64,000 nucleotides of DNA from Eledone cirrhosa. Lineage: Eukaryota. Location of the stretch: contig OZ024746.1 in assembly GCA_964016885.1 (NCBI GenBank), positions 80,290,001-80,354,000 on the forward strand, given 5' to 3'. Within the stretch, counting starts at the first letter, position 1. Each line of letters begins with the position of its first letter. The translations under genes and the position numbers were made by a program. Shown here piece after piece: positions 2,873 to 56,847 of the stretch. The notes under the pieces were generated by a model. That model was given only the letters and a program-made list of their open reading frames with translations. It searched no databases and was not told the origin of the DNA.

Positions 2873-3778
2873 TTATATATATATATATGTATATATATAT
2901 TTATACATATATATATATATATATATATGGGTGTGTGTGTGTGTATGTGTGTGTGTGTGTGTGTGTATTAATCACTACCTCCCTACGGACAACTGACGCT
3001 GCACACCAGGTCCGGAGACGGATGAACCGAGTTCCCACTGTCATCGCCTCCATCTCTCTCGCCCTCCCCATTTCACATTGAATGAATATACGACAATATA
3101 TGTTTACATACAAATGTCTAGAAGAGACGTAAATATCTCTTAAATGGAAATACTGTTGTTAACTATATACCAATTAGTATGATTAATTCAGAAATATAGA
3201 AGTAAAGGACTTTTGAAGTTGGAACGTTGAAAAGTATTATATTTCCACAGCTGGGGTAAGAAGCGCTGAGAAAAGGGGAAGAGATTGTGATAGAAATATT
3301 GCTATAGAAGATCTTCAGAGATTACTTTTTTCATCTAGCTTCATGTATCTAATTTAGTAGTGTTATAAGGTGACAAAACTATCGGATCTTACCTATTCTC
3401 CGATGGGGATCTGGGCAAATATCTGATATCATCTTTGAAGCAATAATTAACTAAGAGTCTTTCCCTGACAAGAAGTTGGAGATCTTAGTGATGATATTAT
3501 TGATTAAATTCTTAAACATTATGGGTGGGATCTAGGATTTTAATTTTATATATTTTACTCCTTTGTTTTACTATAAAGTTTATAAGTCATTATCTCGATT
3601 AAGTGTGATATATGAGAAGTATGTTATTTTAATGTTAGCCATGATTACAATTATTATTCTTTGTATGTTGAAATTCTTGATGAGGCCCTCCCTGAATTTA
3701 TCTAATCCAATAGGATAAGAGGTCATACTTAATACCTTGTTTCTGTATAAACCGATGGTAGGGGCTGTTGAAATTATA

Positions 3779-3998
3779 TATATTTAATGTAGAAATGGTT
3801 CCTATAGGACTAGAACTGTTTCATTCGGGAGAAATCACCAAGAAAGCCCTGAGGGGGAGGGGGGGGCTTTCCTGATGATTTCTCCCGAATGAAGCAGTTC
3901 TAGTCCTGTAGAAGCCGCCATTTCTATATTAAATATTTATACTCTGCTATGTATTGAGTACTTTACTTACTGTGGTTACCCCGATTGAACCCGGGATA

Positions 3999-5492: not shown

Positions 5493-5496
<4 letters not shown>

Positions 5497-6031
5497 GATT
5501 TTGAGTTTATGTTGGTTGTATACCACCACCTCAGTATGCAGGCTGGAGCACTCGACGAAGTGCGCAGGTTGGTTTGGTTACTCCGGAGTAGTGTAAAATA
5601 AAGTTAAATAAAAGTCAAATGATTAAAATTTAGCTTCGTTTATTACTGCTATATATATTTCAGTGACAGCCATCTTTGGCTGTGACCTCTTCAGGCAGTT
5701 TGAATTAGTATGGTATAGACAAGTACATATGTTGTTTAGGTGTATAATATTGTCAATACTCTGATATGCCTAGTTCCTTGTTGGGTTGTTAATTCACTGA
5801 GGAACTGGAGTCAAATGAATTCAAACATATGAATTAACAACCCAACAAGGAACTGGGCATATCAGAGTATTGACAATATTATACACCTAAACAACATATG
5901 TACTTGTCTATACCATACTAATTCAAACTGCCTGAAGAGGTCACAGCCAAAGATGGCTGTCACTGAAATATATATAGCAGTAATAAATGAAACTAAATTT
6001 TAATCATTTGACTTTTATTTAACTTTATTTT
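5493..6031 (-). mobile_element. Penelope-like fold-back element in (TA)n, ~200-bp inverted arms plus tail
   Basis: Arms 5595-5796 and 5830-6031 are near-perfect reverse complements; tail 5493-5594 reads TCGAGTGCTC on the minus strand; each arm holds a hammerhead motif. Confidence 0.8.
5927..5981 (+). ncRNA. Minimal type I hammerhead ribozyme (mirror copy at 5645-5699, minus strand)
   Basis: actgc-CTGAAGA-GGTCACAGCC aaagat GGCTGTCACT-GAAA-TATATA-TA-gcagt, followed by AATAAA. Confidence 0.85.
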
Positions 6032-6051
6032 ATATATATATATATATATAT

Positions 6052-6274: not shown

Positions 6275-6578
<304 letters not shown>

Positions 6579-6993: not shown

Positions 6994-7642
6994 GATGACG
7001 ATAATAACAATTACAAGAAGAAGAAGAAGAAGAAGAAGAAGAAGAAGAAGAAGAAGAAGGGGGAGGGCGGGAAGCAGTAAAAGAAGAAGAAGAAATAATG
7101 ATGACGGTGATGATGATGATGATCATCATCATCATCATAGTCGCCATCATCACCATCATCATCATCAAAACTAAAGCCAAGAATTTAAAAAACCAACAGT
7201 TTACTGCAAATAGCAGAGAAAACGAAATCCCAATAAGAAAAAGAAAAAGAAAAAACAAAGAGATAAACAAGCAAATAAAATTACGTCATCTTATCAGATT
7301 ACTTTCAGAGTGAACGAACGAAATGAAGAAAATACATGAGAAGTCAATAGATGAGGGAAATATATATATATATATATACATGTATGTATATATGTATGTA
7401 TATACATATGTATGTGTATATATATATACATACATACATATACATGTATATATATACATATATGTAAGTGTATATATATATATGACTATATATGTACATA
7501 TATACACACACACATATATATATATATACATGTATATATACATGTATATATACATGTATATATATACATGTATATATATGTATACATATGTATACATATG
7601 TATATATATATATATATATATATCTTTTTATCATACATACTG

Positions 7643-7688
<46 letters not shown>

Positions 7689-8014
7689 CAGTATGTATGA
7701 TAAAAAGATAAAATATTAAACAATAATAAAGATACATATATAAATATATAATAAACTCCATCGCAAACAGAAATTATATGAAAAAAAATGAAGATAAAAA
7801 TGAAAGATAATGAAGTAAATATGATACTGACTTAAAGATAACACACACACACATACATGCATACTTAGACACACACACTGCACACACACACACATGCACA
7901 TATTCGCACACACATTCATACCCACATACGAATGTGTGGTATGCAAGTATGTATTATATATACATATATATGTGTGTGAATGCATGGGTGTGGGCATATG
8001 TATAGTTAAATATA

Positions 8015-8071: not shown

Positions 8072-8326
8072 ATAAAAACAAGATGGCGTAGGACAGAACA
8101 AAGGAGAGGCACAAAAACAAAGAAAAGAATCCCCAGTCACTGAAGAGGTCACAGAATGTGTGACGAAAGAACTTTGGCAATATATGAACAATCGTCTGGT
8201 TGTGGAACCAACCAAACAACCGGAAATTTATAAATTCCTAAATTTATAAATTTAATTTATAATAAATTGAAGTGAAAGCAACTGGTGCATGTGTTTCTTA
8301 TTGGCAACATGACCCTCCCAAAGTAT

Positions 8327-8330
<4 letters not shown>
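8072..8330 (+). mobile_element. Penelope-like pLTR segment with hammerhead motif at 8136-8178
   Basis: Nearly identical to 56562-56818, which follows a GIY-YIG ORF; motif reads gtca-CTGAAGA-gGTCACAgaatgTGTGAC-GAAA-gaac-TT-tggc. Confidence 0.8.
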
Positions 8331-8389
<59 letters not shown>

Positions 8390-15781: not shown

Positions 15782-15995
15782 TAAGGAAAAAAGATGATCG
15801 CAGTTCTACTGCTTTTCAGATGGAGGGTCTGTGGTTTTTCTCACATCTGTGAGAAAAACCACAAACCCTCCATCTCAACTCTACTTTTGAAAAGCAGAAG
15901 AACTGCGAAACTGGTAAAGGAACCAAATAAATATATATATACTTTTTTTAAAAAGACTCTAGTTGCATCTTCGATTCATCTTTTTCCCTTATACT
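15782..15995 (+). mobile_element. Fold-back element family B with U3-A8 hammerhead at 15884-15919
   Basis: Inverted arms centred at ~15847; motif ctt-TTGAAAA-GCAG aagaa CTGC-GAAA-ctgg-TA-aag; second copy at 46155-46296. Confidence 0.75.
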
Positions 15996-39274: not shown

Positions 39275-39616
39275 AAGATATTTTCCCACAAAAGGTTAAT
39301 TGCACTTTTTTGTTTCCACTTATGTATTTTTCGAAAATATTATTTATTCATTATAAAAATTAAATGATAGCATTCTATATGTAGGTGGGCCCCCTTTATA
39401 CCCTGGCAACCAATATTTTTAGACCCAGTTCGCCACTGAATATATATATAATATAAATACAGACTGGGTCTAAAAATATTGGTTGCCAGGAGATAAAGGG
39501 GGCCCACCTACATATAGAATGCTATCATTTAATTTTTATAATGAATAAATAATATTTTCGAAAAATACATAAGTGGAAACAAAAAAGTGCAATCAACCTT
39601 TTGCGGGAAAATATCT
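39275..39616. repeat. ~155-bp inverted repeat formed by two DNA-transposon ends
   Basis: 39275-39429 is the reverse complement of 39462-39616; the same sequence occurs at 2680-2872. Confidence 0.85.
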
Positions 39617-40124
39617 TAACTTCTCCAATAAAAAATATTATGTATTTTGCGAAATCCAGAGATTTCAATAATGATCAGAAGTCGACCCTAAATATTATTA
39701 ATAGCTCTAGGAAAGCCATAAACGACACCACATCTTTTTAACTTTGATTTTGAAAGTAGGTTTATAATTATCAATTTTCACTATGCATTCGTAGTTGTAT
39801 CGGTGGCCTATTTGCAGGAATCTTAGACGGTGGTGATGCTGGTCTGAAGTTCGATCCTGGTCGGGGGTAGGTTCCCGGTAAACATTTTGAGTTTTTTCTA
39901 TTGGTTGTAAAATAAAAACCGAAAAAGGCTACATGCACCTCTTGACCAGGATTGAACCCAAAGCCAGAACCTCCACCGTCTCTAGTATCTACCACTAGTC
40001 CACAGAGACAACTACGAAAGCCTGATGAAAATTCATACTTATAAACCTACTTCTCCAATAAAAAAGGTATTTTGCGAAATCCAGAGACTTTCAATAATGA
40101 CTCTTGGTCTTTCACACTCACTCA

Positions 40125-43612: not shown

Positions 43613-44558
<946 letters not shown>

Positions 44559-49575: not shown

Positions 49576-49615
49576 CATATATATATATATATATATATAT
49601 GGATTTCGGTCTTTG

Positions 49616-49664
<49 letters not shown>

Positions 49665-49675
49665 ATTTCGGTCTT

Positions 49676-49712
<37 letters not shown>

Positions 49713-49808
49713 GGATTGGACACTACCGTAAACTCTTGGTAGATTTATCTACATATATATATATATATATATACAAAGACCGAAATCCAGAGTGGACTCG
49801 ATAATGGT

Positions 49809-49851
<43 letters not shown>

Positions 49852-53078: not shown

Positions 53079-53812
53079 GTTGTGACTATTACCATTACCA
53101 TCACTTATCTTTGCTTTCATCTTATTGCTTTACCCACACAAACTATCTGGCAATTTAAATTAGAATCTCACATATACCCAGCAAATATAATTTACGACTG
53201 ATAAAATGCAGAAATGGATGACCACCGTCCTAGCCTGGCGCCACCAATTGATAACGCGTACCATCTGAGAAATATGAGTGGACGGACCGAGATTACCCTA
53301 AGTGTCAACAAGTGTCAACAAGACCATTAATCAAGAAGAGAATATTGAGAGGGTGACAAAAAAAAAAAAGATTGGACTAATAGGAACCACCTCCAAATAC
53401 AGACCAAAAAGTAACCACGCCCTAAGAGATGTGAACAAGAAAAACATCTCTGGGTAATCCCATATGCTAGCTGAGCAATGAAGAAAGAAGACCTAAGCCA
53501 GCGGATATACCGAATAAGAATTTACATCCATAATGTTTATGTAAGAAAAAGACTGTCTGATGAAATCATATCTGAGGATTACATAGCAAATACCATCGAA
53601 ATATGTATAACAGTGATTAAATAATAAATAGAATGTAGGAAAATTCAAACATACTGTCTTCTAATTTATTTATATACTAATACTGCACCGTACTAGGTGA
53701 TGGTATGAGAACAGTAGAGCTACATACGACGTCGAGCTCTCAATACTGCGTTCACAGGTATTATTAATCTATACTGGAAAACTAATAACGGATTTATTAA
53801 CACGGTATTACC

Positions 53813-53850
<38 letters not shown>

Positions 53851-53856
<6 letters not shown>

Positions 53857-54252
53857 AACGAGTAGGACCCCGATGGCTGAGCTCAAGCCGTTTCGACGGC
53901 TAATTCTGGACTAAATGAAAATTTTTATCCTGGTACATGAATAACCGAGCTTCTCAGGGGGTAATTCCATATATGGTAAAAGTGATTGCCATGATAGAAT
54001 TATGTGTCTCAACAACAAAATTTTGACCAATCCTTGTGACAATCACTTTTACCATATATGGAATTACCCCTTGAGAAGCTCGGCTATTCACGTACCAGGA
54101 TAAAAATGTTCATTTAGTCCAGAATTAGCCGTCGAAACGGCTTGAGCTCAGCCGTCGGGGTCCTACTCGTTCCTATTACCCACTCTACTATGCTAAGTAT
54201 TGAGTACTTTGGTGCGTTTTGGTCCATCTGGTTCCTTACCACATTTCCTTCG

Positions 54253-54256
<4 letters not shown>
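53851..54256 (+). mobile_element. Fold-back element family A, longest copy, with complete hammerhead at 54067-54160
   Basis: Arms 53852-53991 and 54038-54175; cccc-TTGAGAA-..CGGCTATTC...GAATTAGCCG..-GAAA-CGGCT tgagctc AGCCG-TC-gggg; tail with TTGAGTACTT. Confidence 0.85.

Positions 54257-54704: not shown

Positions 54705-54708
<4 letters not shown>
54315..54708 (-). mobile_element. Fold-back element (52-bp arms plus tail) in (TA)n
   Basis: 54432-54483 is the reverse complement of 54658-54708; unique tail 54315-54431. Confidence 0.7.
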
Positions 54709-54749
<41 letters not shown>

Positions 54750-54969
54750 GGTAATACCGTGTTAATAAATCCGTTATTAGTTTTCCAGTATATATATATA
54801 TATAAACGGAAAAAATGAAACGAAATTTCATTTCCCACTCTTAGTACGGCTGTTACTTAAATATAAGTATGTACACGTACATACATATATGTATACAGAC
54901 GTACAGTAGTATGTATATATATATACATACATGCACACATATATATATGTACGTATGGATTCACCATAG

Positions 54970-55120
54970 AAAATATTCATTGTGTATCGACCCGTTACGC
55001 GCGTTTCGCAGAGGATTGGCTCAGGGTCACCCATAGAAGTTATGACCCATATTTCCTATAGGTGACCCTGAGCCAATCCTCTGCGAAACTCGCCTAACAG
55101 GTCGATACACAATGAAAATT
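54970..55120. repeat. ~65-bp-arm hairpin containing a 3' half-hammerhead
   Basis: Arms 54972-55038 and 55054-55120; the left arm on the minus strand reads GC-GAAA-CGCGCG-TA. Confidence 0.7.
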
Positions 55121-55512
55121 TAAATACATCTAAACAAAACTTCATCGTTTTTTAATACACACACACACACACACACATGTACATATATATATATACATGC
55201 ATACATAGACACGCCATACATAGAAATATATATGTTTGTGTATGTGTCTATGTATGTCTGTGTGTATGTATGTATAGAGAATGACGTAGTAGTTTTCTGT
55301 TATTCATTTGTATACCAATGGCGTGTGTCATTGCATGTGTATTGATTCGTCTAAGTACTTGTACTTAAGTATTATATGCGTCTCTCTTTGTAGTATTGTA
55401 CTTATTTACTTTTCTCTAATTTGTCTATTTGTCTGTTTCTTTTTTCTTTCTCATGTTCTCACGCACATTGCATCTTACCGCTCTCTCCTCCCTCTCTCTC
55501 TCTCTCTCTCTC

Positions 55513-55706: not shown

Positions 55707-55762
<56 letters not shown>

Positions 55763-55765
<3 letters not shown>

Positions 55766-56811
55766 CGTTTCTGAATTTGTTTAGCAAGATCCTTTATCTG
55801 AAAACGTGTGTTGAAACCGATATTGTTATACTTTGGGAGGGTCATGTTGCCAATAAGAAACACACGCACCAGTTGCTTTCACTTCAATTTATTATAATAT
55901 CTTTATCTTTGAGTTTATGTTTATCTTTATCTTTACAAGGGCCCTAGATAAACATAAACTCAATATTAAGATAGTAGAAAGACCAGGTACCTCCATAAAA
56001 ACACTTATTAGCAAGAATACCCTTTTCAAAGACGCCCCTGTATAGATAAGAAATGTATAACCTGTAAATTAAGCCCCCATATTAACTGTAAAACTAGAAA
56101 TGTAGTATATAGCATAAGATGTACTGAAGGACAATGTAGAGATAAAAATATAGTGTACATAGGTGAGACAGCTCGTAGTGTAGGGGAACGGATAAATGAA
56201 CACTGGCGAGACCTTCAAGATAATAAAGAATCATCTGTACTCTACCAACATACTAAAATAGAACATAAGTGTAAATTAGAGAACATAGAAATAAAAATAG
56301 AATCTACACACAGAAAAGACGCAATGTTAGACAAATCACAGAGGCAATAAACATAAAAGAATTACAACCAAAATTAAATAGAAAACATGGATGGAACAGC
56401 AACATCACAACTTACAATTAAGGACAAAATGAAAACACACAGACACATAGAACAAACAACCAACCAGTAACATATAAATAAACAAATAAATAAACGAATA
56501 TAAACACACACAGACACCCGGATTTGGCGCATGCGCAGACTGAGCACACAACACACACACAGAAACAAGATGGCGTAGAACAGAACAAAGGAGAGGCACA
56601 AAAACAAAGAAAAGAATCCCCAGTCACTGAAGAGGTCACAGAATGTGTGACGAAAGAACTTTGACAATATATAAACAACCATCTTGTTGTGGAACCAACC
56701 AACCAACCGGAAATTTATAAATTCCTAAATTTATAAATTTATTATAATAAATTGAAGTGAAAGCAACTGGTGCATGTGTTTCTTATTGGCAACATGACCC
56801 TCCCAAAGTAT

Positions 56812-56820
<9 letters not shown>
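55763..56820 (+). mobile_element. Truncated Penelope-like element: inverted tail/pLTR, GIY-YIG fragment, pLTR with hammerhead (56623-56665), in (TA)n
   Basis: Frameshifted ...NCKTRNVVYSIRC...YIGETARSVGERINEH... at ~55940-56400; inverted repeat 55820-55898 versus 56741-56818; gtca-CTGAAGA-gGTCACA gaatg TGTGAC-GAAA-gaac-TT-tgac. Confidence 0.88.

Positions 56821-56847
<27 letters not shown>

What the first reader, a model, noticed from the sequence alone, without database searches (positions are those of the whole stretch)
55763..56820. A single locus links the hairpin/tail architecture to a GIY-YIG Penelope ORF
Between two (TA)n tracts lie a tail plus a 79-bp pLTR end on the minus strand, then a GIY-YIG remnant, 3' UTR, hammerhead and the same 79 bp on the plus strand with no tail. 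The ORF-bearing arm is the tail-less one. The copy at 8072-8330 stops within a few bases of the same point. This suggests the tiny hairpins are short versions of the same integration product, made by a strand switch during insertion.
Basis: partly seen in the sequence, partly recalled or inferred. Interest (0 to 1): 0.75.

Follow-up and report, generated by a model that had tools for sequence, protein, structure and literature searches.

The report
Head-to-head Penelope insertion, one tail
This is a broken, shortened copy of a very abundant Penelope-like jumping gene that sits head to head with a short copy of its own end inside a TA repeat, a layout already published; its many sister copies nearly always pair one tailed with one tail-less end, which suggests that both cut DNA ends likely start copying the same RNA at two fixed points 60 bases apart.

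Summary
Observation confirmed: (TA)n, then a 57-60 nt tail plus an 80-bp pLTR end (minus strand), a short templated filler, a GIY-YIG remnant, 3' UTR, minimal hammerhead, the same 80 bp without tail, (TA)n. It is a 5'-truncated copy of a Neptune-type Penelope-like element (unit about 4.0 kb, over 10,000 ends of each type). Inverted pLTR plus one-sided tail is published (Arkhipova 2013; Craig 2021), as are two RT start sites (Frangieh 2024), and this scan noted it before on other DNA. Added here: outward end pairs are one tailed plus one tail-less in 43 of 47 census pairs; 10 of 10 evaluable advance predictions held; both arms share subfamily alleles (51 vs 14), so likely one source RNA; both starts read AATAT|CG; 5' breaks pile up at 56549-56572, a likely RNA 5' end. 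Two of the window's tiny hairpins belong to another, Hydra-like family with the same rule.

The parts
55714..55763 (.). left (TA)n target tract
   Evidence: sequence
55760..55819 (-). tail, 57-60 nt; in full-length copies it is the ORF continuing past the pLTR end (about codons 9-29); ends at the downstream start site ...GAAATAT|CG
55820..55899 (-). short inverted arm: last 80 bp of the pLTR
55900..55931 (.). junction filler with a 17-nt inverted copy (55909-55925) of the start of the plus arm (55947-55963); likely a templated insertion made during end joining
   Evidence: (hairpin z -5.56); mechanism inferred
55932..56421 (+). 3' end of the ORF: CX4CXXC linker, GIY-YIG endonuclease with CCHH residues; frameshifted near 56016 and 56326; stop at 56419-56421
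56422..56819 (+). 3' UTR / pLTR, ending tail-less at the upstream start site ...ACAATAT|(TA)n; holds the ORF's ATG at 56794-56796
56527..56575 (+). candidate internal promoter: NRF1-like word 56527-56537, 5'-break hotspot 56549-56572, YY1-like word 56566-56575
   Evidence: 20 breaks vs 4.5 expected; motif consensus from PMC13017510; promoter function untested
56623..56665 (+). minimal type I hammerhead motif; predicted cut after 56661
   Evidence: sequence; 5,215 exact copies of the 39-nt core in the genome; activity untested
56816..56843 (.). right (TA)n target tract
   Evidence: sequence
8076..8333 (+). second, single-armed tail-less copy of the same family in (TA)n; starts inside the 5'-break hotspot

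Best explanation
This is a 5'-truncated, frameshifted insertion of a high-copy Penelope-like retrotransposon in a (TA)n tract, made of two head-to-head arms that likely arose when both cut ends of the target primed reverse transcription on the same element RNA at two fixed internal sites 60 nt apart. Shown: family, anatomy, the two fixed 3' ends, their near-strict pairing (one tailed, one tail-less) and shared alleles between arms. Inferred: the GIY-YIG endonuclease nicks both strands of (TA)n; one 3' end starts at the pLTR end, the other at the tail end, each helped by a 4-5 nt AUAU match to the target; both cDNAs run towards the RNA 5' end and stop early or run off at a promoter-defined 5' end near 56560; the two cDNA ends are then joined by microhomology or templated-filler end joining. 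A two-active-site (dimeric) RT on one RNA would explain why one start of each kind is used.
For: Family: RT (PF00078, E 6e-4, below cut-off) and C-terminal GIY-YIG in one about 4.0-kb unit; L098 shows inverted pLTR+tail | pLTR+tail+ORF+pLTR without tail; 21 relatives of 1016-1325 aa at 30-45% identity. Ends: 10,238 tail-less and 10,259 tailed exact ends running into (TA)n. Pairing: in a position-ordered census of the first 46.7 Mb of C1 (95 + 100 ends), outward pairs within 5 kb were 43 mixed, 3 tail/tail, 1 tail-less/tail-less of 47 (45/3/2 of 50 within 9 kb, P 2e-9 vs 0.5); in BLAST-selected loci 40/2/0 of 42, 25 of 27 where selection ignored the tail; 10 of 10 evaluable advance predictions of the far end were right, 1 of 11 not evaluable (note); a second family shows 37 of 37. 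One source: arms share minor subfamily alleles, 51 both-minor vs 14 discordant (0.785; shuffled 0.149; 0 of 2000 shuffles; 43 pairs), replicated 13 vs 4 in 24 pairs (shuffled 0.20). Both sites read AATATCG, found only at these two places of the unit (0.42 expected). Junctions show short overlaps or templated fillers (14 overlap, 9 filler, 1 blunt of 24). Both end types occur in raw reads of other samples. Published biochemistry of the anole element PAc: both strands cut and extended, two internal RT starts bounding the tail (PMC11167929).
Against: Exceptions exist: 4 of 47 census pairs, and 2 of 4 evaluable unpredicted long insertions (L180 tail/tail, L181 tail-less/tail-less). Many insertions show only one arm (38 clusters) and 16 of 58 two-armed clusters had one non-standard end and were left out of the count. 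Allele sharing would also follow from two RNAs of one master locus or from gene conversion between arms; 14 + 4 discordant sites remain. 8 of 24 pairs have matched 5' breaks (2.9 by permutation, P 0.002), which a fold-back also predicts. AATAT occurs at over a dozen other places in the unit, so microhomology alone does not choose the sites; PAc starts were reported as not homologous to the cut DNA. No RNA data were available.
Confidence: 0.7

Rival explanations
1. Strand switch / fold-back (first reader; self-priming as discussed for Adineta Penelope elements): one cDNA is made, snaps back and copies itself, giving the inverted arm.
For: Matched 5' breaks in 8 of 24 unbiased pairs; shared alleles; a local 17-nt fold-back in the filler of this locus; PMC3846280 Discussion argues for self-priming from junction palindromes.
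Against: A fold-back copy cannot hold sequence absent from the first arm: here the tail is only on the left and the ORF only on the right; the tail-less arm reaches further 5' in 11 of 24 pairs. It does not explain why the second arm ends exactly at the other fixed site.
Confidence: 0.12
2. Both arms start at the tail end and the element's endonuclease trims the tail off one arm while resolving the intermediate (the pLTR end looks like its AT-rich target).
For: Craig et al. [quoted passage not shown] It predicts the 1:1 ratio and the pairing equally well.
Against: PAc RT starts at both sites in vitro, without a resolution step. Genomic data here cannot separate the two.
Confidence: 0.13
3. Two independent insertions into the same (TA)n, later recombination between copies, or an assembly artefact.
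For: (TA)n tracts collect several insertions (L006, L088, L186).
Against: Independent events would pair end types at random and be separated by TA; arms abut with 0-40 nt junctions, pair 43 of 47 mixed, and share alleles. Raw reads show both end types and opposite-strand joints.
Confidence: 0.05

Closest known systems
Insertion unit of endonuclease-bearing Penelope-like elements: inverted 5'-truncated copy plus one-sided tail (Adineta Pen2a, PMC3846280, passages and Discussion read; Craig et al. 2021 Fig. 2 legend, PMC8557442, passages read)
   Same: pLTR holds the first codons of the ORF and the tail extends it; inverted pLTR at the 5' side; tail at one end only; hammerhead in the pLTR; microsatellite target.
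   Different: Tail is 57-60 nt here (79 nt in the second family) against the 30-40 bp described; the one-tail pattern is counted here (43 of 47) where the papers say 'often' or 'optionally'.
PAc (Poseidon of Anolis carolinensis) in vitro, Frangieh et al. 2024, PMC11167929 (parts 1-2 of 4 read: all results, start of methods)
   Same: Two internal RT start sites shortly after the ORF start bound the tail; both target strands are cut and extended; AT-rich target; hammerhead upstream.
   Different: Different clade by motif (CX4CXXC linker present); both starts here end in AATAT matching (TA)n, whereas PAc starts were reported not homologous to the cut DNA; that paper saw no strand preference and did not test whether one product uses one start of each kind.
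Neptune clade (or Nematis) of C-terminal EN+ PLEs, as defined in PMC8557442
   Same: RT then CX2-5CxxC linker then GIY-YIG with CCHH; (TA)n insertion; same cysteine pattern as two Neptune rows seen in the supplement.
   Different: No phylogeny against named references was possible; long Asn/Thr/His-rich insert before the RT (ORF about 1,200 aa).
L1 twin priming (recalled, not from a call)
   Same: Both target strands prime cDNA on one RNA and give an inversion; a few copies here show the L1-like abutting pattern (L041, L042).
   Different: Here both arms normally start at the element's 3' start sites and overlap in sequence, instead of the second primer landing at a random internal site.

Membership tests
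EN+ Penelope-like element (canonical, C-terminal EN) | Single ORF with RT followed by C-terminal GIY-YIG endonuclease | tested here: met
   read from several broken natural copies, no intact copy seen among those fetched
EN+ Penelope-like element (canonical, C-terminal EN) | CCHH motif with two cysteines within the GIY-YIG core | tested here: met
   NCKTRNVVYSIRC...YIGETAR...NEH...YQH; definition from PMC8557442
EN+ Penelope-like element (canonical, C-terminal EN) | pLTRs from partial tandems, inverted 5'-truncated copy, optional tail | tested here: met
EN+ Penelope-like element (canonical, C-terminal EN) | Hammerhead motif in the pLTR | tested here: met
   core and stems read from sequence, fits the minimal type I description of PMC4209133; no Rfam hit; cleavage not tested
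EN+ Penelope-like element (canonical, C-terminal EN) | RT groups with PLE/telomerase RTs in a phylogeny | not tested
   no named reference RTs were available as sequences; relatives are unnamed
Neptune / Nematis clade | CX2-5CxxC linker upstream of GIY-YIG | tested here: met
   CIDKKCITC, conserved pattern
Neptune / Nematis clade | Placement in the RT tree (Neptune vs Nematis) | not tested
   motifs do not separate the two
Naiad / Chlamys | N-terminal GIY-YIG, no canonical hammerhead | tested here: not met
   EN is C-terminal and a hammerhead is present
Hydra clade (for the focal element) | CxCX5C linker, no CCHH | tested here: not met
   focal element has CX4CXXC and CCHH; the second family (hairpins 6276-6465, 53854-54253) does show CxCX5C plus CxxC and CxH around E and N
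MITE / fold-back DNA transposon | Fixed terminal inverted repeats and fixed length, no RT link | tested here: not met
   arm lengths vary from about 20 nt to 4 kb and continue into an RT ORF

The most novel reading that the evidence does not exclude
Penelope-like elements integrate by an obligatorily asymmetric double priming: one RNA, two RT sites, one starting at the pLTR end and one at the tail end, each pairing a few AU bases with the nicked (TA)n; an NRF1/YY1-type internal promoter sets the RNA 5' end, so the abundant 260-320 bp arms are complete run-off copies from the 5'-proximal start sites rather than random truncations. The rule would hold across clades (43 of 47 here, 37 of 37 in a Hydra-like family).
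Probability: 0.4. Interest if true: 0.6.

Novelty: new member of a known kind. Interest (0 to 1): 0.33.

Why it matters
The locus itself is one dead copy among more than ten thousand, in a published layout. Its value is as an entry to a large, young family that lets the still unresolved Penelope integration mechanism be tested from genome data: how the inverted arm and the one-sided tail arise is named as an open task in PMC8557442 and left open in PMC11167929. The counts here turn 'often at one end' into a near rule and give a concrete in vitro prediction. It also warns that TA-flanked mini-hairpins in such genomes are retroelement ends and not MITEs or structural RNAs.

Tried and rejected
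Rfam at gathering and at E 10: no hammerhead or other real hit. DNA search with the 74-bp pLTR end returned nothing because common words are skipped; exact patterns were used instead. 5' breaks at the hammerhead cut site: 5 vs 2.9 expected, P 0.17, not supported. An apparent 5' boundary at 56416 and 3' boundary at 56715 in raw reads lie on AATT words, with read starts on GCATGC: most likely restriction sites of the reduced-representation libraries, rejected as element ends; read depths from these runs are therefore no copy counts. A break cluster at r3689 is a short tandem duplication of a subfamily. The arm-length statistics included 6-8 read-through arms of long copies and were replaced. A stable RNA structure over pLTR end plus tail: none (z +0.63). 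Homodimer prediction of the N-terminal 248 residues: no answer. No solved relative by sequence. The single RNA-labelled run held one 50-nt piece and is uninformative. Pfam gave no family for the second family's endonuclease; it was linked by a profile of this family's relatives (E 2.5e-9 against one sequence) and by motifs. Paper searches found no paper that counts end pairing or tests allele sharing between arms; Arkhipova 2006 and Evgen'ev and Arkhipova 2005 were not in the listings and were not read, so this is not proof of absence. The supplements of PMC11167929 and of the bioRxiv preprint were not seen.

Full report
Observation. Between two (TA)n tracts the window holds, on the minus strand, a 57-60 nt tail (55760-55819) and 80 bp (55820-55899) that match 56740-56819 on the plus strand with one mismatch. 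The plus arm starts at 55932, carries a GIY-YIG remnant (PF01541, E 7e-5, above cut-off) that is frameshifted near 56016 and 56326, a 3' UTR, and a minimal type I hammerhead motif at 56623-56665 (read from sequence; fold; no Rfam hit). The 33-nt filler between the arms contains a 17-nt inverted copy of the plus arm's start. A second copy at 8076-8333 is single-armed and tail-less.

The family. The window lies in a 3.0-Gb genome. Searches with the pLTR, endonuclease, tail and ORF start gave 588, 2176, 117 and 854 candidates, of which 40 each were scored and 30 each fetched; the scored copies are 96-100% identical to the queries. Longer stretches show a unit of about 4.0 kb with one ORF: N-terminal domain, Asn-rich insert, RT (YVDD; PF00078 weak), CX4CXXC linker and GIY-YIG with CCHH. 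The ORF starts 26 nt before the pLTR end, and the tail is simply the ORF's continuation. L098 is a full insertion: inverted pLTR with tail, then pLTR, tail, ORF, pLTR without tail. Twenty-one unnamed relatives of 1016-1325 aa share the layout. By motif this is a Neptune-type (or Nematis-type) element (PMC8557442 passages; two supplement rows); no tree against named references was made.

Two fixed ends, paired. Arms end at one of two sites, 60 nt apart: the pLTR end (P) or the tail end (T). Exact patterns running into (TA)n count 10,238 P and 10,259 T ends. Among the ends listed for the first 46.7 Mb of contig C1 (95 P, 100 T), outward-facing neighbours within 5 kb were 43 P/T, 3 T/T and 1 P/P. 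In BLAST-selected loci, after dropping 25 duplicate or superseded loci, 58 clusters had two outer ends, 16 of them with one non-standard end; the other 42 were 40 P/T and 2 T/T, and 25 of 27 where selection ignored the tail. I wrote down the expected far end for 11 long copies before analysing them: 10 were right and 1 was truncated; of 5 further copies without a prediction, 2 were P/T, 1 T/T, 1 P/P, 1 not evaluable. Which arm is longer is not fixed: P further 11, T further 5, equal 8 of 24. In read-through copies both sites read AATAT|CG; this 7-mer occurs only at the two sites in the reference copy, while AATAT alone is common.

One source. At 33 non-CpG polymorphic sites, the two arms of an insertion carried the same minor allele 51 times and differed 14 times (0.785 against 0.149 in shuffles, 0 of 2000; 43 pairs). 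In 24 pairs from position-ordered loci the figures were 13 and 4 (shuffled 0.20). This fits one RNA, or two RNAs of one master; gene conversion between arms is not excluded. The test was prompted by an earlier scan note that suggested different parents in another genome; for this family the result is the opposite. Junctions have short overlaps or templated fillers, as expected of end joining.

5' breaks. Among 124 unique arms chosen without regard to their 5' end, 20 break at 56549-56572 against 4.5 expected, with none in the next 20 nt. The cluster lies between an NRF1-like word (56527-56537) and a YY1-like word (56566-56575); the motifs were recalled first and then matched to the consensus given in PMC13017510 (passages), where YY1 acts just downstream of start sites. 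Drosophila Penelope has an internal TATA-less promoter (PMC2377424 passages). A start of transcription is the likely cause, but the adjacent (CA)n run could also cause stalling or alignment edges, and many full-length copies carry more upstream sequence, so longer templates exist. There is no significant cluster at the hammerhead cut site.

The other hairpins. The window's other TA-flanked hairpins have no sequence match to this element. Those at 6276-6465 and 53854-54253 belong to a second high-copy family with a 79-nt one-sided tail; 37 of 37 outward motif pairs were P/T (20 tail-selected, 17 arm-selected; continuity between the ends not checked). Long copies lead into a different GIY-YIG ORF with CxCX5C, CxxC and CxH motifs, as described for the Hydra clade.

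Mechanism. Shown: identity, anatomy, fixed ends, pairing, allele sharing. Inferred: both target strands are nicked and prime cDNA at P and at T on one RNA, and the two cDNAs are joined head to head. A plain fold-back fails at this locus since each arm has sequence that the other lacks, though 8 of 24 pairs with matched breaks (2.9 expected) leave room for it in a minority. Trimming of one tail by the endonuclease cannot be excluded from genomic data.

Known work. Inverted pLTR plus one-sided tail: PMC3846280 (passages and Discussion) and PMC8557442 (passages). Two RT starts bounding the tail, both strands cut, predicted dimer: PMC11167929 (parts 1-2 of 4). Minimal hammerheads, also in opposite strands 100-700 bp apart: PMC4209133 (parts 1-2 of 4). 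The retrozyme preprint 10.64898/2026.07.22.740005 (part 1 of 5), PMC13282606 (passages) and PMC12910113 (passages) added nothing on this point. Earlier notes of this scan reached the same class and a similar two-start reading on other DNA (unchecked AI notes, not counted as support).

Verdict. A real, ordinary member of a known kind; the locus is not unique. The added value is quantitative support for an asymmetric double-priming mechanism that can be tested in an existing assay. Interest 0.33.

Noticed in passing
window 6276-6465 and 53854-54253: Hairpins with a 79-nt one-sided tail in (TA)n; ends of a very young (40 scored copies 100% identical over 125 bp) Hydra-like PLE family with a 3' UTR of over 1 kb.
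   Followed up: yes
window 5494-6032: Third hairpin family (arms 5594-6032) with a one-sided extension of about 100 nt and a minimal hammerhead in each arm that shares CTGAAGAGGTCACAG with the focal element.
   Followed up: partly
window 39275-39617, 44339-44531, 43729-44020, 54971-55121, 15798-15908, 49600-49850, 7586-7749, 3775-3941: Further local inverted repeats, several next to (TA)n; families not worked out.
   Followed up: no
window 53767-53854 and 54708-54795: 88-bp inverted match (99%) flanking the region that holds the 53854 hairpin; may be an older insertion split by later ones.
   Followed up: no
L041, L042, L107, L183: Some long copies have internal inversions whose pieces abut in element coordinates, like L1 twin priming.
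   Followed up: partly
L036:2184-2217, L091:3501-3520, L235, L229: Second arms as short as 12-30 nt exist and escape BLAST, so some 'single-armed' copies are two-armed.
   Followed up: partly
L098 about 3350-3700: Long Asn/Thr/His-rich low-complexity insert in the ORF before the RT, recalling the Asn-rich inserts of Adineta Penelope elements.
   Followed up: no
L219:3863-6616 (-): Uninterrupted 918-codon frame of an RTE-like LINE (endonuclease and RT motifs by eye) next to a family-2 copy.
   Followed up: no
runs X5, X6 (organisms B, C): Contigs of other organisms carry parts of this pLTR; X5 has the tail and the tail-less end running into (TA)n, so the family may be shared among related species.
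   Followed up: partly
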